IMG/VR virus record: IMGVR_UViG_3300021254_000021 | Coordinates: 128,001 to 192,000 of that record | From: a virus | Lineage: Duplodnaviria; Caudoviricetes | Direction: 5' to 3' (one strand) | DNA: 64,000 bases | Shown: positions 2,782 to 58,241 of the stretch, in pieces | Position numbering within the stretch: position 1 is the stretch's first letter | Layout: the number at the start of each line of letters is the position of its first letter | Notes under the pieces: model-generated | What the model saw: the letters and a program-made list of their open reading frames with translations, nothing else | What the model was told of the DNA's origin: nothing | The model's database searches: none | Translations under genes and position numbers: made by a program

Positions 2782-3297
2782 ATGTGTGACCAAGTATTAG
2801 AATCAAACAAACGAACTTTTATAAACTACTTATTCCCTATGGTTATTCAACTGTTATTGGACATAGAAAAGATTGTCACAAACTTGAATAACAAGACATA
2901 CCAAGACCGTATTACAGTTACCGAGGAACAAAGGAAAGGTAAAACGGTAAAGGTGCATTCCGTCATTCCTCTAACTAAAGAGCAGATAAAAAATGAATTA
3001 GAGAGTCATAATCTTTCCATGACCATTTCATTCATTAAAGAAGGGTTAAAGCAAATTAACCATCAAACCATAGGTATTGATGAGATGTTTGAGTGTCTGG
3101 AAAATGTGTATATAGAAACATATTATTTTAAAGGATGTTGTGAGAATTGTAATGATATAGGTCTTTACATTATAGACATACTTGGTGCAATGCGTATAAG
3201 TATGGGAATAGGTTATGGTAAACCTGAGAAGTATAATAATATTTTTGCTTTCTTAGCTTTCCATACTCTTACTCTCTTTGATTTATTAGGGGTGTAG
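2782..3297 (+). CDS. Hypothetical protein
   Basis: 171 aa ORF in the + strand run. Confidence 0.6.
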   Translation: MCDQVLESNKRTFINYLFPMVIQLLLDIEKIVTNLNNKTYQDRITVTEEQRKGKTVKVHSVIPLTKEQIKNELESHNLSMTISFIKEGLKQINHQTIGIDEMFECLENVYIETYYFKGCCENCNDIGLYIIDILGAMRISMGIGYGKPEKYNNIFAFLAFHTLTLFDLLGV

Positions 3298-3299
3298 TC

Positions 3300-3539
3300 A
3301 TGCAAGTAGGTATAGATTTCGACGGTACGGTAATCCGTTATGCCATTTGTGCTAAACAGATAGGTGGAGACGGACATACCATAATAACAACAGAAACTTT
3401 AGAAGGAGCGAAACACGAATTACAGATTATTTTAAATCGTGCAAAGAAAAAGAAGCGTCCCACAGACATAAAGTATTGGATTTTCAACTACCCACGGTCT
3501 AAAGACCGTTGGATTGTAGGCAACTGCAACCCAAGTTGA
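3300..3539 (+). pseudogene. Small phage gene interrupted by the IscB element; its apparent C-terminus is element-derived
   Basis: The ORF runs into TTCAACTACCCACGG at 3483; codons after ...KYWI belong to the element end. Confidence 0.6.
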
Positions 3540-3745
3540 ATAGCCTAAGTTTTTTGAGAACTACGTTACCCAAGAATATATAGGTACTTTAGGATGTAGT
3601 ACCAAGTCCTAAACACTACGGCTTATGGTTAAACAATTCTGAGAGGTAGGAATAGTGCTGTAAGCATAGAAACCTTGGAATAACATTGGCGATGGTACAC
3701 AAACCACTCTTCGGAGTGAGTAATTAACTTTTAAGTAAGTTAAAA
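3483..3745 (+). ncRNA. IscB omega-RNA (HEARO-like) scaffold
   Basis: About 260 nt structured region directly 5' of iscB with characteristic segments (ACTACGTT, TAGGATGTAGTACCAAGTCCTA, AACATTGGCGATGG, ACTCTTCGGAGT hairpin). 3' limit approximate. Confidence 0.8.
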
Positions 3746-3758
3746 AGGAGACGGATTT

Positions 3759-5000
3759 ATGGTTTACGTCATTAGTAAAAACGGACAACCTTTAATGCCT
3801 ACGGAAAATTATGCGAAAATCCGTGTTCTATTAAAGAACAAAAAAGCAAAGATAATTAAAAGATGTCCGTTTACAATACAGTTAGCTTATGATAGCAAGA
3901 ATTATACGCAGGATATTACGTTAGGTGTGGACGCAGGAAGCAAGCATATCGGACTTTCAGCTACTACAAAAGACAAAGTATTATTCGAGTCTGATGTAGA
4001 GTTACGAAATGATATAGTAGATTTACTTTCTACACGCAGACAAAATCGCAGAACCAGAAGAAATCATAAAACCAGATACCGTAAACCACGCTTCAATAAT
4101 CGCAGGCGAAAAGACGGATGGTTAGCCCCTTCAATTCAGAATAAAGTAGATACACACCTAACGGTAATCCGCAGAGTACATGAGATACTTCCGATTACTA
4201 AAATTATTGTAGAAGTAGCATCTTTTGATATTCAGAAGATAAAGAATCCTACAATAAGTGGGATAGAGTATCAACAAGGCGAACAATTAGACTTTTGGAA
4301 TGTCAGAGAATATGTATTATTTAGAGACGGTCATACTTGTCAGTGCTGTAAGGGTAAGTCAAAAGACAAAATCCTAAATGTACATCATATCGAAAGCAGA
4401 CATACAGGTGGTAATGCACCTAACAATCTGATTACCTTATGTGAAACGTGTCATTCAGGCTATCACAAAGGCATAGTAAAACTACCCAATACAATAAAAC
4501 GTGGTATGTCTTTTAGAGATGCTACCTTTATGGGAATCATGCGTTGGTATTTCTATAATAAGCTGAAAGAGGCATACCCAAATGTAAGCCTTACTTACGG
4601 ATATATCACAAAGAACACTCGTATAGAGAATGGTTTATCCAAAAATCACTATATTGATGCCAGATGTATAAGCGGCAATCCATTAGCTGTATCAGATGGT
4701 ACGGTATATTATCAAAAGAAAATAAGATGCCATAATCGTCAGATATATAAGAATACCATTCTTAAAGGTGGTATTAGAAAGCGCAATCAAGCAGACTACG
4801 AAATCAAAGGCTTTAGACTGTTCGACACCATTAGATATAAAGGTAATACATATATTATTTTTGGTAGAAGAAACAGTGGATTTTTTGATATTCGCACTCT
4901 TGATGGTATAAAAGTAAACAATGGTTCTGTAAGTTGTAAGAAGATGCAACTTATTCAGCCTAACAGTAACTATTTGATTGAAATTCGGAAATGTGCATAG
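3759..5000 (+). CDS. iscB: RNA-guided endonuclease IscB
   Basis: N-terminal PLMP motif, RuvC-I GVDAG, Arg-rich bridge helix, RuvC-II IVE, HNH (CQCC...HHIESR...GGNAPNNLITLCETCH) and RuvC-III HYIDA. Confidence 0.95.
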   Translation: MVYVISKNGQPLMPTENYAKIRVLLKNKKAKIIKRCPFTIQLAYDSKNYTQDITLGVDAGSKHIGLSATTKDKVLFESDVELRNDIVDLLSTRRQNRRTRRNHKTRYRKPRFNNRRRKDGWLAPSIQNKVDTHLTVIRRVHEILPITKIIVEVASFDIQKIKNPTISGIEYQQGEQLDFWNVREYVLFRDGHTCQCCKGKSKDKILNVHHIESRHTGGNAPNNLITLCETCHSGYHKGIVKLPNTIKRGMSFRDATFMGIMRWYFYNKLKEAYPNVSLTYGYITKNTRIENGLSKNHYIDARCISGNPLAVSDGTVYYQKKIRCHNRQIYKNTILKGGIRKRNQADYEIKGFRLFDTIRYKGNTYIIFGRRNSGFFDIRTLDGIKVNNGSVSCKKMQLIQPNSNYLIEIRKCA

Positions 5001-31554: not shown

Positions 31555-31744
31555 ATGGATGAAATGATAAAATTAAGTGATGAAGATTTTGAAGAATATC
31601 GTGAGATATTTCAGGATGTCCTAGCATTGCGTGGAGATTTTAGATTACCAAGAATTATCTGATGCCATATATGATATTCAGGAACCGTTAGATGCACTCT
31701 TTAAGGCTTTAAAGAAAATAGTTATTGATCAGAAACAAAAATAA
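31555..31744 (+). pseudogene. Small frameshifted gene
   Basis: MDEMIKLSDEDFEEYREIFQDVLALRGD continues as LDYQELSDAIYDIQEPLDALFKALKKIVIDQKQK if one T is removed from GATTTT. Confidence 0.55.
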
Positions 31745-31801
31745 AAAATAACAAAAACTGATTGCAAAAATCGAAAATAAGCTGTATAAAGAATAAAGAG
31801 A
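31719..31801 (+). repeat. ~80 bp direct repeat, copy 1, containing a sigma70-like promoter (TTGCAA-17-TATAAA)
   Basis: Aligns by eye with 32952..33032. Confidence 0.8.
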
Positions 31802-31891: not shown

Positions 31892-32992
31892 ATGAGAGAA
31901 AGGAAAGAGTTAGAAGGTGTAATTTCTTGTTGGAATGAGATATATCCAAATAGGAAAAATCAGCCAACTTTGTTATTTGTAACAGATACAATATTACAAA
32001 GCATTGCTAAGGATTTAGGGTTTGTAATATGTGAAGAAAATGATAAAACACTTACATTTAAGTGTTTGAATTTTCCTTTAATCGGTGAGCTAGACCTTAA
32101 TAAGAAAGCGAAAAATTTATCTCTATTTTTCGATCTTAATCCATATTCTTTAGTTATAAATGGAGAAGAGAGAAGTAGAGAATATACGATTACTGCATTT
32201 AAGTGTGACTTGAAGCATCGTGTAGCAGAGTTTGTATTTCTACATTATGTTGATTTACAGAAACAATTAATATCTTTACAGAAAGCATATTTAGGGTTTA
32301 GTATACAAAGTATGTATATGAATCATGTAGACACAAAGTTTGTATTAGATTTTAATGGTATGTTTAATAAAGCAGAGTTGCTATTAAACAATATACATAT
32401 ACATCTAAGTAACCTTATAGGAACATCTTATTTTAGCAATTCAGTTTATAGCTTAACAAGTAATTTTAGATGTGTACCAAAAGTATCATCTGATGGTTCA
32501 TCACACAGCAATATAACATTATGTGTAAATGTTATTCCTGTTGTTGAAAAGTTAGAAAATAGAAAATGCTTTGATGCTGTTCATTCTTTTGTGAAAGAAA
32601 GACTAAAAGAACAGTATAAGGAATATTCATTAAAGGATTTAGAAAACAGAAAAGCGAATATTTCTTCCACAGATACTAGGTGTGTTTCATTTCCAGATAC
32701 ACTTATTCTTAATGAAACGACATTTAAAAATGTATTTCCAGACAGGCTTTTACCTGAATGGAGTTTAATGTGGGGTATGTGTTCTATATATATTACTGAA
32801 GATATATCAGATGGTCATATATTATTTATTAGTTCTTCTGATGATATGCGAAACCCTATCTGCATTGATAAAGAAAATAATAGGTATTATGTAAATGAAA
32901 CAAGTAGAGATATTCTCGCTTTTAATGTTTCTATTAAAAGTAAAGATGAATTAGTTATTGATCAGAAACTAGTAGAAAATAATAAAAACTGA
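31892..32992 (+). CDS. Multi-module hypothetical protein
   Basis: 366 aa ORF flanked by the two repeat copies. Confidence 0.65.
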   Translation: MRERKELEGVISCWNEIYPNRKNQPTLLFVTDTILQSIAKDLGFVICEENDKTLTFKCLNFPLIGELDLNKKAKNLSLFFDLNPYSLVINGEERSREYTITAFKCDLKHRVAEFVFLHYVDLQKQLISLQKAYLGFSIQSMYMNHVDTKFVLDFNGMFNKAELLLNNIHIHLSNLIGTSYFSNSVYSLTSNFRCVPKVSSDGSSHSNITLCVNVIPVVEKLENRKCFDAVHSFVKERLKEQYKEYSLKDLENRKANISSTDTRCVSFPDTLILNETTFKNVFPDRLLPEWSLMWGMCSIYITEDISDGHILFISSSDDMRNPICIDKENNRYYVNETSRDILAFNVSIKSKDELVIDQKLVENNKN

Positions 32993-33032
32993 TTGTAAAA
33001 ATCGGAACTAAGCTGTATTTAGAATAAAGAGA
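32952..33032 (+). repeat. ~80 bp direct repeat, copy 2, with promoter (TTGTAA-17-TATTTA)
   Basis: TAGTTATTGATCAGAAAC...AAAAACTGATTG-AAAAATCG...TAAGCTGTAT...AGAATAAAGAGA is shared with 31719..31801. Confidence 0.8.
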
Positions 33033-33104
33033 ACCTGTTTGGTTCTCTTTTTGTTACTGGATGGTATTCCAGACTCCCGTTGGAGACTCACATTTGAGGT
33101 AAGT

Positions 33105-34325
33105 ATGCGTGTTGCAGTAAAGAACATGAGTGGTGTATTTATACATTCCACCACTCCACGAAAAGCTAGGCTTCTTCTAAAAGAGAAGAAAGCTGTCATA
33201 GAATCAAACAATCCTTTCACTATTCGTCTTTTGTTTTCTAAAAGTGAATGTGGATTAAAGGATTCTGAATCATTAAACAGACTTAACGCAGGCTTATTGT
33301 CTGAAAAGGATAACACTATGTGTGATGATAGAAAAGAAATAGAAGAATTGCACAATGCTTATGGCGACTACATACAACCAAGTCTAAATGTTATAATGGC
33401 TAATCCTAAGAACAAAAGGATAAAATGGTGTAGTAAAGATAGCAATTCTGCAAACGGTGAGAATAGTTCTGAATCATTTGTACAAACCTTATATGATGCT
33501 TGCACCATGTTATATCAGCAAACAGATGGCCGATATTATGGTAACTTTGTACATATTGGTAAAAGAGGATTTGAGCTTTTACAAAGACTTGACCCTAAAA
33601 GATTCTGGAAAATGGATAATTGGGTAGGAATTGATGATGCTATAAAAGTACACTATATCGCGACTATGCCAGAAAACAATTTTATTGTAAGTATAAATAA
33701 TAATTATTTTAAGGATCGTGATAAATTCATTGTGGGGTCTATAGTGGATGAAGAATGTTCTGAGAAAAGTGAATCAGAGGAAGCTATTAAACAACAGGAA
33801 CAGTCAGACAATAATAAGTCTGAAAAGGAAAGCATTATGAGTAATGAAATACATATCCCCAAAACACATCTTATTTTTGGTGCAGTAGGATGTGGTAAAA
33901 CTACGCTATTAGCTAAACTGGTTAGAGATAGGCTAAATAATGGTGAACAAGTTGCACGTGTTTTATATAATAAAAATAAAGACGTACACTCTAAACTATT
34001 TCATTCAGAGAATGGAGGGTATTGTACTTTGATTGAATTTCATGGGAAAGACGCATATTCACCAGTTGAAGCAAGTTATCATCTGATGAAAGCGTGTGAA
34101 TTTCCAGCTTCTATTACAACAATAGTGTTAGATGATATTAATAAATTTTTAATACACGGTGATTACGATCCTCAGGAATATTTCCGTGAGTTCTCTAGGG
34201 TATGTCGTGAGAACAATATAGATTTCATCTGTACTTTAGGTGCTGATTCAGATAAAAATGAGGTCTATCACAAACTTCCAGAAATCTATGAACGATTCTC
34301 TGATATTATAACTGTTTTGAAATAG
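33105..34325 (+). CDS. Fusion protein: IscB-type PLMP/RRXRR N-terminal domain, central module, C-terminal P-loop NTPase
   Basis: First 44 aa align with the IscB N-terminus (K.R.LLK.KKA.I....PFTI.L); Walker A GAVGCGKT and Walker B IVLDD; GAGGT RBS before ATG 33105. Confidence 0.75.
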   Translation: MRVAVKNMSGVFIHSTTPRKARLLLKEKKAVIESNNPFTIRLLFSKSECGLKDSESLNRLNAGLLSEKDNTMCDDRKEIEELHNAYGDYIQPSLNVIMANPKNKRIKWCSKDSNSANGENSSESFVQTLYDACTMLYQQTDGRYYGNFVHIGKRGFELLQRLDPKRFWKMDNWVGIDDAIKVHYIATMPENNFIVSINNNYFKDRDKFIVGSIVDEECSEKSESEEAIKQQEQSDNNKSEKESIMSNEIHIPKTHLIFGAVGCGKTTLLAKLVRDRLNNGEQVARVLYNKNKDVHSKLFHSENGGYCTLIEFHGKDAYSPVEASYHLMKACEFPASITTIVLDDINKFLIHGDYDPQEYFREFSRVCRENNIDFICTLGADSDKNEVYHKLPEIYERFSDIITVLK

Positions 34326-34394
34326 TGCTTATAAGGGAGATTCATTTGTTAGGAATCTCCCTGTAACCAACTTTAAGAAATAAGGAACACTATT

Positions 34395-34604
34395 ATGAGA
34401 TGGAATTACACAGTTTTCTCTGAATACCCGCAAAAACGAGCGCTTTGTTTCGTCGAAATAGGTATTAATCATTATAAATTATTATGGTTTCAGAAGGAGG
34501 ATAAATGGTGGTATGACTATGATACATACAAACCTTATGCAGAGAGTACCGAACATTTAAAGTGGGTGTACTTAGACGACATCTTAGAAAACATTGATAT
34601 ATAA
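34395..34604 (+). CDS. DUF551-like small protein
   Basis: W-N...P...C-F-V...K-W-V-Y pattern. Confidence 0.55.
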   Translation: MRWNYTVFSEYPQKRALCFVEIGINHYKLLWFQKEDKWWYDYDTYKPYAESTEHLKWVYLDDILENIDI

Positions 34605-50200: not shown

Positions 50201-52626
50201 ACATTATCATAGAATGTCCGTGGCAATTCTGGAAACCTGATTTATACCCTTTCCCAGAATTAACAAAGACTGTCTATGACCTCTATGTTCCAGAGTATAA
50301 CCAGTTTACAGCTAATGGGTTTATTGTACATAATTCTTTGCCCAAGCCCAAGTCTATAAAGTGTTATGCCAGAAAAGCTACTCCCGAGGAAATAGAAAAT
50401 AAACAGGATGTATTAGGATGGATGTTTTCACCTAATCACCCTGAGTGGAGTCCCGGGAAAGTAGTAGAAGGAATGGATCAGAATCTTAATGTTAGAGCCG
50501 CATTTCTACCAGAACATCCAGAAAACGGAGATTATGTGGTGTCTTGCGATATGTGCTTAGAGGCGGGATCTCCTGTACAAACAAAACGTGGTTATTTAGG
50601 TATATCAGAATTAAAGGTTGGTGATGAAATATACTCGCCTCAAGGATGGGTGGAAGTTATTCGCGTAATGCAGACAGGTATAAAGAAACTCATTAAGGTA
50701 TTACCTGATAATGGTGGGCAAGCCCTTTATTGCACAGAGGATCATCATTTCCCTATTGATAGTAAAAAGATAGAAGCTAGGAATATTAAGGCTTCTTTAC
50801 CTTCTATTTCGTTTTATAGCTATAATGAAGAAATTGAAAAGCGTGGTTTGACTGAAGCAAAACTGTCTATGCTTAAAATGTGTAAGACACCCAAAGAAAA
50901 AGCAAATTATATAATAGCTAATAACCTAAAAGATTTCTTTATTTCATCCCTTCAAAAATATACTAGGGCAAACATAGCTCGATGGACAGGTACAAAAGTT
51001 TCGAGCTTTGGGCATATTTTAGACTACTTAGGTATTCATAAAACGAATAAGAGATATGCTTTTAAAGTAGATCGCTTTTATAACAATCCTTTCATAGATT
51101 CTAGTAATCCAACTTCAGCTTATCTGTTTGGTTATATTTTAGGTGATGGTAATATACATGAAAGAAAAAGTGGTATATCTACGTTAAATATTACTTCTAA
51201 AGATAAAGCACATCTCACACGTATCATGGAAATCTTTGGTAAAGATACAAAAATGCGTAAGCATAGTAGAGATGATAAAGAATGGTGGTCTATTGATATA
51301 ACAGATCAAGGTATTTGTAAACGTCTTAAAGAGTTAGGCATTAGTATGCGTAAGTCCACAGAACCTAGTTATGTAGATTTTACTTGGATTGGAGAGAACT
51401 TTAGACATTTTATTCGTGGTTTATTTGATTCAGATGGTTATGTTCGTATTAGTTCAGGTTTGGATTTAAGTTTTGTAGGACACGATTTATATATTAAGGA
51501 AATACAAAAAAGAATTGATGGAGATTGGGGATATAAATATACCCAATCCTTATCTTATTTATTTTTGCATGGTAGATTAGAACAAAAGAAGTTTATTCAT
51601 GCTTACTTATATCAAGGTGCAACTATTTGGTTACAAAGAAAACGAGATATTATAGAGCAATGGTATTTAGAACATTTTGGAGATATTATATGGCCTGTAT
51701 GGAATTGTACGGTAAATACACCAGAACACCTATATTATGCAAATGCTATATCTACTTCAAACTGCGGCGAGGAACTAAGAGTAGTAACAAATTTATTTAA
51801 AGAGGATTCTTGGGCTAGGATTATAAATTCTGGTGGAGATTTACATCATGCTAATTCTGATGCTATATATGGAGAAGAAAATTATACTAAAGAAACAAGG
51901 AAGAAAGCTAAAGGGGCAGCATTCGGAATGCTCTACGGCCAAGAATATAGAGGGTTTCAGCGTAAATTTCCCGATATGTCTTTAGATGAAGCAAAGGAAT
52001 TTATGATAAAGTTTAAACGTACAATACCACATATTGTACACGGTCAAGAGAGAATGATTAAAGAAGCAAGACGTACTGGGACATTTTATTCTGGTTTTGG
52101 TCGTCCGCGTAGAGTTAAACATTATCTAACATCACCTGATTATAAGGATGTAGCATTTGGTGAAAGAACGATCAAAAATGGCCCGATCCAAAGTACAGCC
52201 GCCGATGTTTTAAAGTTGGAATTAATAAGATTATGGGATAACCTATTTACCGTTTATCCAGAATACAAGTTTATTGTTACTATACATGACGAAATAGATG
52301 TTAGTATACCAAGACACCTAGCTAATGAGATTATCCCTAAGATGATTAGATGTATGACTGTACAAAGACCCTCTGATCTTGTACCTCTTGACTGTTCATT
52401 GAGTTGTGGCCCCACATTGGGTGCGCAATATGAAATGGTATATAACTTTGAGACAAAAGAATTTGAGCCCAAATGGGAAGAAGATAAACGTATAGAAACT
52501 CAAGAAAGTACACAAGAGGAAACAGAGAATAATGAATTGGATGAGGAAAAAGAGAATATAGATGATTCTATTTCTTATGAGGATGATTTAGTAGAGGAAG
52601 TAGATTCAAAGATGTTTGATTTTTAG
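47248..52626 (+). CDS. polA: Family A DNA polymerase with 3'-5' exonuclease and four inteins (about 741 aa mature)
   Basis: ExoI DTETTG, ExoII YNARFD, ExoIII YACLD after splicing, TGRL, NLQ, motif A SCDMCGEELRV, motif B RKKAKGAAFGMLYG, motif C IHDEI. Confidence 0.95.
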   Translation: MASTPYKHFVPPVPLNPDYDKNFTYVLIETLDQLKDSFQKGVVIAWDTETTGLNPVESEIVGFSYSYDGQTGYYCPVKHFDLALGKPALDLFYQALKDAKLQLLYNARFDIRMMEYSGYDMSFLYPKNPDTNLSQAVFIDVMNQVWLADTNIPLPSLKSSTLHFLGYQPPKFLETLGDEQNFKYVPAKDAYRYACFTADTLIQTKHGLKQISELKPNVDLIKTSDGYHRLLNVLDQGVQKVIRVSTPIGTSFTCTPDHKFAMEIDHCICWVEAKDLDKISFHKRYCGGQSLYEIEKCYTPSPMVMDDGNACKIEYVDEPQPVFDLTIEDEHNFFLQCGLIAHNCLDAINTMNLFKVTYRFYKESGKAAQLDNACVYIIGQLEKTPLNIDTDYLVDLRDKVYSRVLELEQEIYSIAGHPFKIGSNRELTLVFQEHGIDTGERTKAGDMKTGIELLNMYLRNHPECTLLKLLIEYKEQFKFYNSYLKTLVDIAKKQDTVPPRFSYKLQSVPCLTENNLVLIRDKGITYIPEVKEQDYIWTQYGYKRVLWCNSHKTEDVYRVTFENAVFIEGTAHHPVLVNKGTEINPELEWATLESLKEGERVIFNHHTPPLQYSDDPKEKELSKYLEYLGYLIAVNIEPSVQYQVDWIETRDDLFKQASNEFRQMTHTITSNPGYLFDLVIKSKPYQWIHFLQGIFFSVFETPVAQTWNNSNMDEFILRSQTPLLLTFLMNILSYLGIPTSLAYDDDSFFIIFNTSQSLTLLKTLIITDSNSHYLKSLFQNYNPFNYFIEYADSKVKAKEKMEGEHTVYDIEVEDVHEYVANGIVTHNTGRLATGKDGKNTYFAPINLQCLEENTLIKTERGNIPIKNVTEKDLVWTGTRFVPCKPLGSKQKECFKIKTLWGEIEASLEHRFLTINIYDDYKIEWHTLAECISRKLPLVKDPQSLGIQFDDLYNHPTYSVIGNLRKELDLDRYRKVAEFYKSYKFDIIIECPWQFWKPDLYPFPELTKTVYDLYVPEYNQFTANGFIVHNSLPKPKSIKCYARKATPEEIENKQDVLGWMFSPNHPEWSPGKVVEGMDQNLNVRAAFLPEHPENGDYVVSCDMCLEAGSPVQTKRGYLGISELKVGDEIYSPQGWVEVIRVMQTGIKKLIKVLPDNGGQALYCTEDHHFPIDSKKIEARNIKASLPSISFYSYNEEIEKRGLTEAKLSMLKMCKTPKEKANYIIANNLKDFFISSLQKYTRANIARWTGTKVSSFGHILDYLGIHKTNKRYAFKVDRFYNNPFIDSSNPTSAYLFGYILGDGNIHERKSGISTLNITSKDKAHLTRIMEIFGKDTKMRKHSRDDKEWWSIDITDQGICKRLKELGISMRKSTEPSYVDFTWIGENFRHFIRGLFDSDGYVRISSGLDLSFVGHDLYIKEIQKRIDGDWGYKYTQSLSYLFLHGRLEQKKFIHAYLYQGATIWLQRKRDIIEQWYLEHFGDIIWPVWNCTVNTPEHLYYANAISTSNCGEELRVVTNLFKEDSWARIINSGGDLHHANSDAIYGEENYTKETRKKAKGAAFGMLYGQEYRGFQRKFPDMSLDEAKEFMIKFKRTIPHIVHGQERMIKEARRTGTFYSGFGRPRRVKHYLTSPDYKDVAFGERTIKNGPIQSTAADVLKLELIRLWDNLFTVYPEYKFIVTIHDEIDVSIPRHLANEIIPKMIRCMTVQRPSDLVPLDCSLSCGPTLGAQYEMVYNFETKEFEPKWEEDKRIETQESTQEETENNELDEEKENIDDSISYEDDLVEEVDSKMFDF
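47830..48276 (+). mobile_element. Intein 1 (149 aa mini-intein) in ExoIII
   Basis: CFTADT...TPDH...FDLTIEDEHNFF...AHN followed by Cys. Confidence 0.9.
48775..49728 (+). mobile_element. Intein 2 (318 aa) with a degenerate LAGLIDADG region
   Basis: CLTENN...TAHHP...YDIEVEDVHEYVANGIVTHN followed by Thr of TGRL; YLGYLIA and FLQGIFF lack the acidic catalytic motif. Confidence 0.9.
49792..50334 (+). mobile_element. Intein 3 (181 aa mini-intein)
   Basis: CLEENT...SLEH...YDLYVPEYNQFTANGFIVHN followed by Ser. Confidence 0.9.
50554..51762 (+). mobile_element. Intein 4 (403 aa) with LAGLIDADG endonuclease, in polymerase motif A
   Basis: CLEAGS...TEDH; GYILGDG and RGLFDSDG; ends YANAISTSN followed by Cys. 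Confidence 0.88.
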
Positions 52627-52645
52627 CCCTTCTTTCTGATTAGAG

Positions 52646-52682
52646 GAAAAGCCTATCTATGTTCACGATAGGCTTTTCTTTT
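52646..52682 (+). terminator. Intrinsic terminator
   Basis: GAAAAGCCTATC...GATAGGCTTTTCTTTT. Confidence 0.75.
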
Positions 52683-52693
52683 ATGAGGTTATT

Positions 52694-53596
52694 ATGGTTA
52701 CGTTAAAGAAATATGTCACAGAGGCAAAACAGGTAGGAACAATTTATCATGTTTGCTCTTTATCCGATTTGGAATACCTCATTCCTAAAGACACTTTATC
52801 CAGTTCGGGCTCATACTATAATAAGCTGTTAAAGACAGATAAAGCTATCTCTTTTACCAGAGATAAGAATTTCTTTGTCGATGTACCTAATATAGCCAAT
52901 GCACCTATTCATGTGCAGTTAGTTGTAGATGGGGACAAGCTATCCGAGAATTACAAAGTCACTCCATACAATGACTTTTATACAAGGGGTGATTCAGACC
53001 CTAATGTGTATGCGCCTAAGTCACCTAATAAAATAGACCCGATGTATTTAGAAAAAGAAGAAGCTGTTATTGGCCCGATTAAGAAGTTTTCTAATTACCT
53101 AAAGTCTATAAAGGTTATTGTTAAATCCCTGCCTTATAAAGAGTTGGATGATATTCAATATATCATTGAGGATTTAATATCATACACTACTAAGAATAAC
53201 ATTCCTGTGGAGTTGGAGATAAAGGATTCCTCACTAAAAGGAAAAATTAAGAGCTTGAATGACATTCTCTCTTACAACCCGTATGATCTCACATCTATTA
53301 CGGATATAGAGGATGCTATCATACCTTTATTCCAAAAGGTAAAAGACCCAACCTCTTTTAAGAAGTTGTCTGACTATATCCACTCCCTACTTACTAATGG
53401 AATAACATTAACCTATAAGTCACCTATAACCAATAAAAAGAGCAAGAATGCAGATATAGATTTATTAAAGGATGATTTAGAATCCGTGGATTATCAAATA
53501 AACCAGTGTGAGACGTATATAGGTAGTAATGTTCTCACAGTAGCATTTAGACTGCGTGGTTACTCTGATTATGGGTATATGGAAATCCTTTTGTAA
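52694..53596 (+). CDS. Putative ADP-ribosyltransferase-like protein, paralogue B (MVTLKKYVTE leader) with an extra C-terminal region
   Basis: EAKQVG.IYH...SFTRDK...DGDK.SEN.KV.PYND...LEKEE is shared with 44286. Confidence 0.55.
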   Translation: MVTLKKYVTEAKQVGTIYHVCSLSDLEYLIPKDTLSSSGSYYNKLLKTDKAISFTRDKNFFVDVPNIANAPIHVQLVVDGDKLSENYKVTPYNDFYTRGDSDPNVYAPKSPNKIDPMYLEKEEAVIGPIKKFSNYLKSIKVIVKSLPYKELDDIQYIIEDLISYTTKNNIPVELEIKDSSLKGKIKSLNDILSYNPYDLTSITDIEDAIIPLFQKVKDPTSFKKLSDYIHSLLTNGITLTYKSPITNKKSKNADIDLLKDDLESVDYQINQCETYIGSNVLTVAFRLRGYSDYGYMEILL

Positions 53597-56455: not shown

Positions 56456-56650
56456 TCAACTACCAACCGCCTAAAGGCGGTTGGCTTGTAACTGACCCGT
56501 AGCTCTTGATCGAGTTTTTGAAGCTCTACTACGTTTTTTACCAACTTTCTTTTCAGAGTGTTGGCTGTCGTTACATCGTGGGGTGATTGACTGCACCCCT
56601 GTTTGAAGAGATATGCTCTCCGAACATTCTGTTTGCTCTTTAATCCAGTT
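56455..56650 (-). ncRNA. Predicted TnpB omega/reRNA scaffold overlapping the tnpB 3' end
   Basis: Follows established TnpB architecture; scaffold ends at ...GGTAGTTGAC. The 5' limit is approximate. Confidence 0.6.
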
Positions 56651-57742
56651 CAGACCAAGATTAAACAGATTCATTGCTCCTATTCTATCGTCATTTGAAC
56701 GATAACCACAATTCTTACAACAGAAACAATGGAGCTTCTTGTCTCTATTTGACTTTTCAATATGCCCACATTTCGGGCAACACTGGCTTGTATAGCGTGG
56801 GTCAGCATTGATTACCAAACAGGAGTTTCGTTGTGCCTTGTATTTCAGCTTTTGTTCAAGGTCATAATACGACCAACTAACTGAAACATAACGGTCTTTT
56901 CTTTTGACCTTTTCCGTTGCACCACGAATCCCTTTCAAGTTTTCAAGCACAAACAAAGTTTTTGAAGGATTACTGGTTATGAGTGCCTTCGATACACAAT
57001 GGTTTACATCGTTCATCCAACGGTTTTCTCGTTGCCCAATCTTCTTCAAACGTCTTCTACTTGATGATGTACCCCGTTTTTGAAGTTCTGTTCTTAATTC
57101 TTTGTACTGCTCCCTTTTATGCTTTACTTTTCCTCCGTTAAAGAATGTTGATTTACCTTTTGAATCATAACTTACTGCTAAGAAATTTATACCACGGTCA
57201 ATGCCAACCACGTTGTAAATTTCAGAAACCTCACAATCCTCAACTTCTGATGTGACTGGGATATGTAGGTAGTATTTACGTTTTGAGCAAACAAGTCTGG
57301 CTGTACCGAACTTGAATCTGTCTTTGTCGAAATACTGTTCCATTCCTTTAATGTCGAATGGAGCTTTAATTCTACCGTCCAAAGTATTTACGCTGAAAAC
57401 GCCCTGAACAAGAGAATAATCCCTATTCCATACAAGGTCTAATTGAGGTTTTCTGAATTTCGGCTGAATCCATTGATGCTCTTCTGCAAGGATTGTCTTG
57501 TATTTGGCTATCACTGTAATAATGGCAGAGCAAGCCATCTGAGATTTTAGACCAAATTTGTCACGCAATTCGTCATAAAGATCATTATGGATCGTTTCTC
57601 GTTTGAGACATTTGTTTTCAAAGCAATAAGCCGCAATTCTGTCACAGGCAATGGAATACTGCACCATTGAACGGTCAAGTATTTTACGAACTGACCGTTC
57701 TGGGTGTATCTGAACCTTAGCTGTGACAACGATTTTCGACAT
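56471..57742 (-). CDS. tnpB: RNA-guided endonuclease TnpB
   Basis: RuvC-I GIDRG, RuvC-II VLENL, YTSQ-CPKC...CKNC Zn ribbon and RuvC-III DDRIGAMN. Confidence 0.95.
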   Translation of the reverse strand: MSKIVVTAKVQIHPERSVRKILDRSMVQYSIACDRIAAYCFENKCLKRETIHNDLYDELRDKFGLKSQMACSAIITVIAKYKTILAEEHQWIQPKFRKPQLDLVWNRDYSLVQGVFSVNTLDGRIKAPFDIKGMEQYFDKDRFKFGTARLVCSKRKYYLHIPVTSEVEDCEVSEIYNVVGIDRGINFLAVSYDSKGKSTFFNGGKVKHKREQYKELRTELQKRGTSSSRRRLKKIGQRENRWMNDVNHCVSKALITSNPSKTLFVLENLKGIRGATEKVKRKDRYVSVSWSYYDLEQKLKYKAQRNSCLVINADPRYTSQCCPKCGHIEKSNRDKKLHCFCCKNCGYRSNDDRIGAMNLFNLGLNWIKEQTECSESISLQTGVQSITPRCNDSQHSEKKVGKKRSRASKTRSRATGQLQANRL

Positions 57743-57772
57743 TATTCTACCTCAAAAAGAAAGCCAAACAAA

Positions 57773-57801
57773 TTGACTTTCATTAGAGTAGATAGTATAA
57801 T
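57773..57801 (+). promoter_or_regulatory. Near-consensus sigma70 promoter for tnpA
   Basis: TTGACT-17 nt-TATAAT. Confidence 0.75.
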
Positions 57802-57836
57802 CAAATTTGTTGAAAGTCAAGTGTTGAGAGGTAAAG

Positions 57837-58241
57837 ATGATCAAAAGGTACACGCGCAAAAACCGCAGGAAGTTCAGCCTAAAAGTACATCTGATTTTCG
57901 TAACCAAATATAGACGACCTATTTTAGTCGCTGGGTTGGATACTTGTGTTAAGGACAAGATTACTGAACTGTGCTTGAAACATGAGTGGGAGATTGTGGC
58001 TATGGAAACAGATAGAGATCACATTCACTTACTCTTGAATTATGATGCCACTGAGAGGGTTTCAGACATAGTGCATTGCCTGAAACAAGAGACTACATGG
58101 GAATTGTGGCAAAATTTCTATTGTTTTCTGCGTCCTAGATATTGGAAAAAGCACATATTCTGGTCTGATGGATATTTTGCTTGTAGTGTTGGAGAAATTT
58201 CTACCGAAACAGCTAGACATTACATAGAGAATCAAGGGTAG
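57837..58241 (+). CDS. tnpA: Y1 HUH transposase TnpA
   Basis: HLIFVTKYRR, DHIHLL (HUH), FWSDGYF and YIENQG. Confidence 0.95.
   Translation: MIKRYTRKNRRKFSLKVHLIFVTKYRRPILVAGLDTCVKDKITELCLKHEWEIVAMETDRDHIHLLLNYDATERVSDIVHCLKQETTWELWQNFYCFLRPRYWKKHIFWSDGYFACSVGEISTETARHYIENQG

What the first reader, a model, noticed from the sequence alone, without database searches (positions are those of the whole stretch)
33105..34325. IscB PLMP/RRXRR domain exapted onto a nuclease-free P-loop ATPase fusion
Seen: the N-terminus MRVAVKNMSGVFIHSTTPRKARLLLKEKKAVIESNNPFTIRLLF aligns with this window's IscB N-terminus MVYVISKNGQPLMPTENYAKIRVLLKNKKAKIIKRCPFTIQLAY, with PLMP replaced by FIHS. No RuvC or HNH follows. 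Instead there is a central module and a C-terminal NTPase (GAVGCGKT, IVLDD). Established: in IscB/IsrB the PLMP domain contributes to the omega-RNA ribonucleoprotein. Inference: a domesticated OMEGA RNA-binding module wired to an ATPase. It could be an RNA-associated regulator, a decoy for omega-RNAs, or an autoregulator binding its own leader. This is my best candidate for an undescribed system here.
Basis: partly seen in the sequence, partly recalled or inferred. Interest (0 to 1): 0.82.

Follow-up and report, generated by a model that had tools for sequence, protein, structure and literature searches.

The report
Self-limiting RNA-binding tag on phage chimera
Large phages of the ruminant gut reuse the small RNA-binding front end of the IscB genome-editing nuclease, together with three tiny RNA hairpins that cover the gene's own ribosome-binding site. 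This looks like a switch by which the protein limits its own production, bolted onto swappable pieces of capsid protein and a cut-down ATPase fold whose job is unknown.

Summary
Residues 1-55 of ORF 33105-34325 are a true PLMP/RRXRR domain (Pfam; VIA Z 8.5, rmsd 1.8 A to TbaIscB) with no RuvC or HNH. It is not a scar: about 70 phage proteins carry it, under purifying selection (dN/dS about 0.15). Its leader is three A-linked hairpins with compensatory changes, the last of which masks the Shine-Dalgarno (SD) site. It precedes nearly all PLMP-bearing loci checked, is absent from PLMP-less alleles and occurs once per genome. Its hairpins resemble the SD-containing terminal omega-RNA hairpin that PLMP contacts in IsrB. 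There is no guide or omega-RNA scaffold. The central module is an old (27% identical) copy of the axial domain of the phage's own gp23-type capsid protein. The C-terminal domain is a RecA/KaiC-fold core that stops before the arginine finger, so nucleotide binding is likelier than motor ATPase activity. Modules sit between SD+ATG repeats and recombine as deeply split alleles. Best reading: a portable translational-feedback cassette capping expression of conflict-type cargo (binding inferred, not shown). The scan noted a PLMP-plus-leader gene and capsid-fragment genes on other DNA before (unchecked); I found no paper describing this family.

The parts
32973..33032 (+). 60-nt repeat holding a promoter-like pair (TTGTAA 32993-32998, 17 nt, TATTTA 33016-33021); second copy at 31742-31801. 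Marks the left edge of the cassette in several strains. Promoter function is inferred.
   Evidence: not listed by the consensus scan
33026..33050 (+). Optional 5' hairpin H0 (terminator-like here; U-tract not conserved; absent in L003, L011, L047)
33057..33072 (+). Leader hairpin H1 (C-G closing pair, variable stem with compensatory changes)
33074..33085 (+). Leader hairpin H2 (CUCC/GGAG), similar in form to the terminal SD hairpin of many omega-RNAs
33087..33100 (+). Leader hairpin H3 (33087-33098), which pairs three bases of the SD GAGGT (33096-33100)
33105..33260 (+). PLMP/RRXRR domain, residues 1-52, basic helix TTPRKARLLLKEKK, purifying selection
33299..33328 (+). Junction repeat copy 1: SD-like AAAGGA plus in-frame ATG (Met72 at 33318)
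   Evidence: (D5)
33384..33737 (+). Optional module, residues about 94-211: diverged paralog of the axial (A) domain region (residues 317-439) of the phage's own gp23-type major capsid protein
33818..33847 (+). Junction repeat copy 2: SD-like AAAGGA plus in-frame ATG (Met245 at 33837)
   Evidence: (D5)
33837..34325 (+). RecA/KaiC/thymidine-kinase-fold P-loop core, residues 245-406 (Walker A 259-266, Walker B Asp343; most conserved surface D353-C367 and FSD 398-400); ends before the arginine-finger region
34334..34362 (+). 3' hairpin after the stop codon; similar hairpins follow most relatives

Best explanation
The leader plus PLMP domain form a portable translational autorepression cassette. 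PLMP binds the base of the short C-G-closed hairpins in its own mRNA leader and holds H3 shut over the Shine-Dalgarno site, capping synthesis of whatever is fused downstream. This would reuse the PLMP/terminal-hairpin contact of IscB/IsrB without any guide or nuclease. The cargo is a shuffled set of pieces (an optional capsid A-domain copy or other inserts, then a nucleotide-binding RecA-fold core) that most likely act by protein binding in a phage-host or phage-phage conflict and are costly in excess. SHOWN here: domain identities, selection on the protein, leader structure and covariation, co-occurrence, single copy, module shuffling. INFERRED: RNA binding, repression, use of the internal starts, and the cargo's role.
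For: PLMP fold and profile. Basic residues R19, K20, R22, K29 and R41 are invariant or nearly so; dN/dS median 0.15, maximum 0.29, over 76 pairs from 13 loci. The three-hairpin leader sits directly before the ATG in 12 loci despite different upstream genes: 93.8% of cells paired, 5 pairs with two-sided changes, 0/500 shuffles as high on three of five measures, slid controls at most 49% paired. Held-out L018 adds further compensatory changes and G-U pairs. There is no leader before PLMP-less alleles (L173, L185/L187) and one copy per genome in G000 and G001. An ACUC(C/U/A)-loop-(G/R/U)GAG SD hairpin ends 19/59 SD-bearing IscB leaders against 1/147 phage genes (the IscB leaders are related, so not independent). 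In IsrB, PLMP binds the terminal tandem hairpins and contacts the SD, and the authors propose expression control (PMC9581776). Leader plus solo 59-aa PLMP occurs (L003), and PLMP is fused to other C-termini (P0070, P0072). Fourteen of 16 combinations of the main middle and C-terminal allele classes occur; dS differs by module (0.3-0.5 against 1.5-3.9, saturated).
Against: There is no binding or expression data. The leader is only marginally more stable than shuffles on its own (z about -1 for the window). L169 keeps a near-intact leader although most of its PLMP is deleted, and L171 has a PLMP with H2/H3 remodelled, so the coupling is not absolute. The PLMP motif itself is replaced, and in IscB that strand packs on RuvC as well as on RNA (PMC9640706). 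The full leader model does not hit omega-RNAs. The sampled leaders are related, so covariation counts are not independent events.
Confidence: 0.6

Rival explanations
1. An integrated RNA-associated or nucleotide-sensing regulator: the P-loop core (with or without A-domain oligomerisation) switches PLMP's RNA binding according to ATP/ADP or a partner, so the fusion works as one machine.
For: 57 of 70 PLMP-bearing proteins end in the RecA-fold domain, and most of the rest look like contig-edge fragments; PLMP+core without a middle module is a common allele; Walker A is intact in 77/82 and the Walker B Asp in 79/82. A-domains form capsomer interfaces (PMC8346489), which could give avidity for three hairpins.
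Against: Core alleles only 20-54% identical swap freely under near-identical PLMP domains. The core exists alone (L185) and PLMP exists alone (L003). There is no conserved catalytic Glu (7/38). Walker A is lost in P0063-P0065 while the leader and PLMP persist.
Confidence: 0.17
2. A trans-acting decoy or repressor of OMEGA elements: PLMP binds omega-RNA 3' hairpins of resident or host IscB/IsrB and blocks their translation or assembly.
For: Many IscB leaders end in a similar SD hairpin; this phage carries an intact IscB with a HEARO RNA.
Against: G001 (95% complete) has the PLMP gene and leader, and no IscB was found there. A private covarying leader is not needed for a decoy. The capsid and P-loop cargo have no part in this model.
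Confidence: 0.08
3. PLMP has lost RNA binding and serves as a protein-interaction or folding tag; the leader is a host- or phage-factor-controlled riboregulator, or DNA hairpins of a non-autonomous IS200/IS605-type end.
For: The leader survives PLMP deletion in L169; its left edge is often TAC/TTAC, which recalls IS608 target tetranucleotides (my knowledge); a TnpA-like gene lies at 57837 (named from its sequence, not tested).
Against: G-U pairs and SD overlap fit RNA function; there is one copy per genome; the basic helix is conserved; the AC at the left edge is the same junction that links the hairpins.
Confidence: 0.1
4. An inert IscB scar that merely supplies a start codon.
For: Truncated IscB remnants are common, and the solo PLMP in L003 could be such a remnant.
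Against: dN/dS about 0.15 with dS up to about 1.2; a distinct group of about 70 proteins; compensatory changes in the leader.
Confidence: 0.05

Closest known systems
PLMP domain of IscB/IsrB with the terminal omega-RNA hairpins (OMEGA systems; Pfam PF14239; PMC9581776, PMC9640706)
   Same: Same fold (Z 8.5, 1.8 A), up to 62% identity, the basic helix, and a hairpin that overlaps the SD just before the start codon.
   Different: No RuvC, bridge helix, HNH or TI domain; no guide or 200-400-nt scaffold (intergenic space 68-200 nt, no Rfam hit); three small hairpins in tandem; PLMP motif replaced; foreign cargo fused.
Domesticated OMEGA proteins such as TldR (bioRxiv 10.1101/2023.11.30.569447; review PMC13565253)
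   Same: A transposon-nuclease part kept without cleavage and used for gene regulation, also in phages.
   Different: TldR keeps the whole TnpB body and a guide RNA and represses transcription on DNA; here only a 52-aa RNA-binding domain remains, unguided, probably acting on its own mRNA.
Translational autorepressors (T4 gp32, gp43 and RegA; MS2 coat-operator; ribosomal-protein leaders; from my own knowledge)
   Same: A protein binds a hairpin that overlaps its ribosome-binding site.
   Different: Different fold and RNA; here the repressor is a detachable N-terminal tag on variable cargo. Works-like comparison only; repression is untested.
Family 4 A-domain encapsulins (PF08967, PDB 2PK8; PMC8346489)
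   Same: An excised HK97 A-domain of about 100-120 aa used outside a capsid.
   Different: Those are cellular, free-standing and linked to enzyme operons in thermophiles; this one is a phage gp23 paralog fused between PLMP and a P-loop core. No DUF1884 match was seen.
RecA/KaiC/DnaB/thymidine-kinase fold P-loop proteins
   Same: Core fold (KaiC Z 13.3, thymidine kinase Z 13.0, T7 gp4 Z 12.1), Walker A and Walker B Asp.
   Different: No family cut-off is reached; the domain ends before the arginine finger (T7 gp4 R522, KaiC R226/R459, from my knowledge); no conserved catalytic Glu; no zinc lasso of thymidine kinases.

Membership tests
IscB/IsrB (OMEGA) | N-terminal PLMP domain | tested here: met
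IscB/IsrB (OMEGA) | Split RuvC with bridge helix (plus HNH in IscB) | tested here: not met
   RRXRR match stops at profile position 45/174; no HNH; the rest maps to capsid and RecA folds
IscB/IsrB (OMEGA) | Full omega-RNA with guide upstream | tested here: not met
   The only Rfam hit in the window is HEARO at 3483-3704; intergenic space is 68-200 nt in relatives
IscB/IsrB (OMEGA) | Terminal SD-containing hairpin as at omega-RNA 3' ends | tested here: inconclusive
   Motif enriched in IscB leaders, 19/59 against 1/147, but the leader model does not hit omega-RNAs
Translational autorepressor | Conserved structured operator overlapping its own ribosome-binding site | tested here: met
Translational autorepressor | Protein binds the operator and lowers translation | not testable with these tools
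   needs EMSA and reporter assays
gp23-type HK97 capsid protein | Homology to the A-domain region | tested here: met
   HMM E 1e-17 to MCP residues 317-425; hhalign 98%, E 2.6e-13; the MCP is Pfam Gp23, E 4e-37
gp23-type HK97 capsid protein | P-domain, E-loop and N-arm needed for a shell | tested here: not met
   Match limited to about 120 of 481 residues
Family 4 A-domain encapsulins | PF08967 match and enzyme operon in cellular genomes | tested here: not met
RecA/KaiC/DnaB ATPases | RecA-type core fold with Walker A and B | tested here: met
RecA/KaiC/DnaB ATPases | Catalytic Glu after strand 2 and arginine-finger region | tested here: not met
   Glu in 7/38; structural matches end at KaiC 208/441 and gp4 503
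RecA/KaiC/DnaB ATPases | ATP hydrolysis | not testable with these tools
   needs an assay

The most novel reading that the evidence does not exclude
A new kind of OMEGA domestication: the PLMP domain and a triplicated omega-RNA terminal hairpin form a roughly 210-nt plug-in feedback module that sets the dose of any protein fused behind it. Here it doses arrays of virion- and replisome-mimicking domains (capsid A-domain, RecA/DnaB-fold core) that titrate host immune sensors or exclude rival phages, with allele classes kept by balancing selection.
Probability: 0.3. Interest if true: 0.88.

Novelty: new variant of a known kind. Interest (0 to 1): 0.7.

Why it matters
The IsrB structure paper suggested, without a test, that the PLMP/terminal-hairpin contact regulates expression of OMEGA nucleases. 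This family isolates just that pair (52 aa plus about 45 nt) under purifying selection, which makes the idea directly testable and, if right, gives an unusually small protein-RNA feedback part. The cargo also gives a clean test of whether phages keep excised capsid domains as decoys: capsid proteins are known triggers of CapRel, Thoeris and CBASS defences (PMC13728456), and here natural alleles exist with zero, one or two A-domain copies.

Tried and rejected
- Donor: the window's own IscB is rejected (33% identity; it sits elsewhere on the tree). The tree has 54 columns and no outgroup. It shows the family as one side of a branch (92/81, not starred) next to the free-standing plasmid-type protein P0084 (99/90), and cannot give the direction of descent.
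- Named relatives: none in the GenBank phage collection. PHROGs, PADLOC and NCBIfam give only P-loop-level or PLMP-level hits.
- Parent of the RecA-fold core in the phage's own genome: none found (only a weak E 2e-4 hit to window 2782-3297).
- Other inserts (P0037, P0063-65, P0070, P0072, P0094): no family, and my guess of tail-sheath fragments was not supported.
- Trans-targets of the leader: none in G000 or G001. A second triple hairpin in L011 (about 9550) precedes an unrelated gene and was not followed up.
- A loose hairpin test did not separate IscB leaders from controls (31/83 against 58/233); only the strict motif did.
- Complex prediction of the A-domain module with the capsid protein: no answer, not evidence either way.
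- Expression: no RNA holder listed.
- Literature: searches for PLMP or RRXRR with phage or exaptation terms found no description of this family; the 2021 Science OMEGA paper is not held, so a mention of such fusions there cannot be excluded.

Full report
Setting. The window lies in a 252-kb, 94% complete phage record with a gp23-type capsid gene and prohead protease at G000 50210-52891. Relatives sit on contigs up to 315 kb; two of the runs laid here are recorded as goat and bovine gut metagenomes. The gene lies in a variable accessory region. In three other runs the stretch from about 32952 to 34386 is kept (90-99% alike) while the flanking 366-aa and 69-aa genes are missing or replaced, and one contig has 301 other letters between the promoter-like repeat and hairpin H1.

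Observation. The 406-aa ORF starts with a PLMP domain: Pfam RRXRR matches residues 5-47, and the model superposes on TbaIscB 1-52 (Z 8.5, 1.8 A). Nothing else of IscB follows. A profile of the domain finds 72 proteins at E <= 6e-23, then a gap to IscB-like hits at 3e-13. On a short, unrooted tree the family forms one group (92/81) and the window's IscB is distant. Codon comparisons over 13 loci give dN/dS of 0.15 (maximum 0.29), so the protein sequence is selected.

The leader. Directly before the ATG, 12 loci carry three short hairpins, each closed by C-G and separated by one A; the third pairs part of the SD. H1 pair 2 is U-A in five loci, A-U in five and G-U in two; H1 pairs 3-5 and H2 pairs 2-4 also change on both sides. 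On ten aligned leaders 93.8% of cells pair; no shuffle of 500 reaches the percentage paired, the two-sided cells or the covariation score, and slid structures pair at most 49% (related sequences, so not a probability). L018, left out of the model, scores weakly at the expected place (E 0.05) and pairs fully by inspection. The leader is found once per genome in G000 and G001, is absent before PLMP-less alleles (L173, L185/L187), and is kept in front of a solo 59-aa PLMP gene (L003). There are two exceptions: L169 (leader kept, most of PLMP deleted) and L171 (most diverged PLMP, H2/H3 remodelled). There is no room or Rfam signal for a guide or an omega-RNA scaffold. H2/H3 have the form of the SD hairpin that ends many omega-RNAs: 19 of 59 SD-bearing IscB leaders against 1 of 147 phage genes. 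In DtIsrB, PLMP binds the two 3' hairpins, stabilises the base of the terminal one and contacts the SD, and the authors suggest expression control (PMC9581776); in OgeuIscB this contact is mainly sequence-independent (PMC9640706). The inference is that leader plus PLMP is an operator-repressor pair.

The central module. It is a paralog of the phage's own major capsid protein, residues 317-439 (tblastn E 1e-7; family HMM E 1e-17; hhalign 98%). That region follows the long backbone helix and aligns to T4 gp23, that is, the axial domain (assignment from knowledge of the HK97 fold). Identity to the resident capsid is 27%, lower than the 44.5% between the capsids of G000 and G001, so the copy is old or fast-evolving. 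It is optional: absent in many alleles, doubled in P0004 and P0094, replaced by unrelated inserts in P0063-P0065.

The C-terminal domain. A confident model (pLDDT 87.5) matches the RecA/KaiC/SF4-helicase/thymidine-kinase fold with no clear winner (Z 12-13.3). Walker A is intact in 77 of 82 and the Walker B Asp in 79, but there is no conserved catalytic Glu, and the matches end at KaiC 208/441 and T7 gp4 503, before the arginine fingers (positions from my knowledge). The invariant residues lie on the helix after Walker B (Y354, E358, E362, C367), with the FSD strand nearly invariant; none is in the P-loop, and they persist in members that lost Walker A. This points to a nucleotide-binding protein-interaction module more than a motor. 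It also occurs as a separate gene (L185).

Architecture. A 30-nt direct repeat with an SD-like AAAGGA and an in-frame ATG stands before the capsid module and before the core (anti-SD pairing -5.6 and -5.8 against -6.9 kcal/mol for the main start). Recombination between such repeats would explain loss, gain and doubling of modules, and internal starts could give nested products (inferred). Five middle and twelve core classes at a 60% threshold occur in 14 of the 16 main combinations; dS between the window and L011 is 0.47, 0.35 and 2.5 for PLMP, middle and core, and 0.29, 3.9 and 1.5 against L014. Old, freely recombining allele classes under a constant regulatory head are typical of conflict genes (inference). 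Capsid proteins trigger CapRel, Thoeris and CBASS defences (PMC13728456), so a decoy or exclusion role is plausible, but nothing here tests it; I give it about 40% among cargo roles.

Verdict. This is not an IscB, not an RNA-guided system and probably not an RNA-dependent ATPase. It is an undescribed phage gene family headed by a selected PLMP domain and a covarying SD-masking leader, most likely a translational feedback cassette (0.6), carrying shuffled capsid-derived and RecA-fold cargo of untested function. It works like known translational autorepressors and is a different route of OMEGA domestication from TldR. Earlier scan notes on other genomes report a nuclease-free PLMP protein with a duplicated folded leader and several capsid-fragment genes; I did not check these and do not count them as support.

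Noticed in passing
G000 genome-wide; window 317, 15168, 30520: 28 same-strand copies of an element (C-run, ACCAA, TTTACAAAAA, then SD) just before start codons of accessory genes; probable phage promoter or recombination spacer.
   Followed up: partly
window 31892-32992 and 34395-34604: Genes between repeated promoter or RBS elements that are absent or replaced in other strains; the 366-aa gene has no convincing family match.
   Followed up: partly
window 3483-5000: Intact IscB (RRXRR + HNH) with an upstream HEARO/omega-RNA.
   Followed up: partly
window 56471-58241: TnpB (Pfam) on the minus strand and a divergent TnpA-like gene: an IS605-type element.
   Followed up: no
L026:5001-5189 (P0084): Free-standing 62-aa PLMP protein in a conjugative-element region (TrbL, ArdC, secretin genes), sister to this family on the tree but without the triple hairpin; the ESM Atlas holds several clusters of 58-64-aa RRXRR proteins.
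   Followed up: partly
L011:9550-9608: A second A-linked triple hairpin before an unrelated 491-aa gene; may be chance.
   Followed up: no
G000:226370-232789 (outside the window): ORFs whose N-termini look like type I-E Cas7 and CasA to me; impression from sequence only, not tested.
   Followed up: no
window 2782-3297: 171-aa ORF with a weak match (E 2e-4) to the C-terminal core profile but no P-loop; possible degenerate paralog.
   Followed up: no
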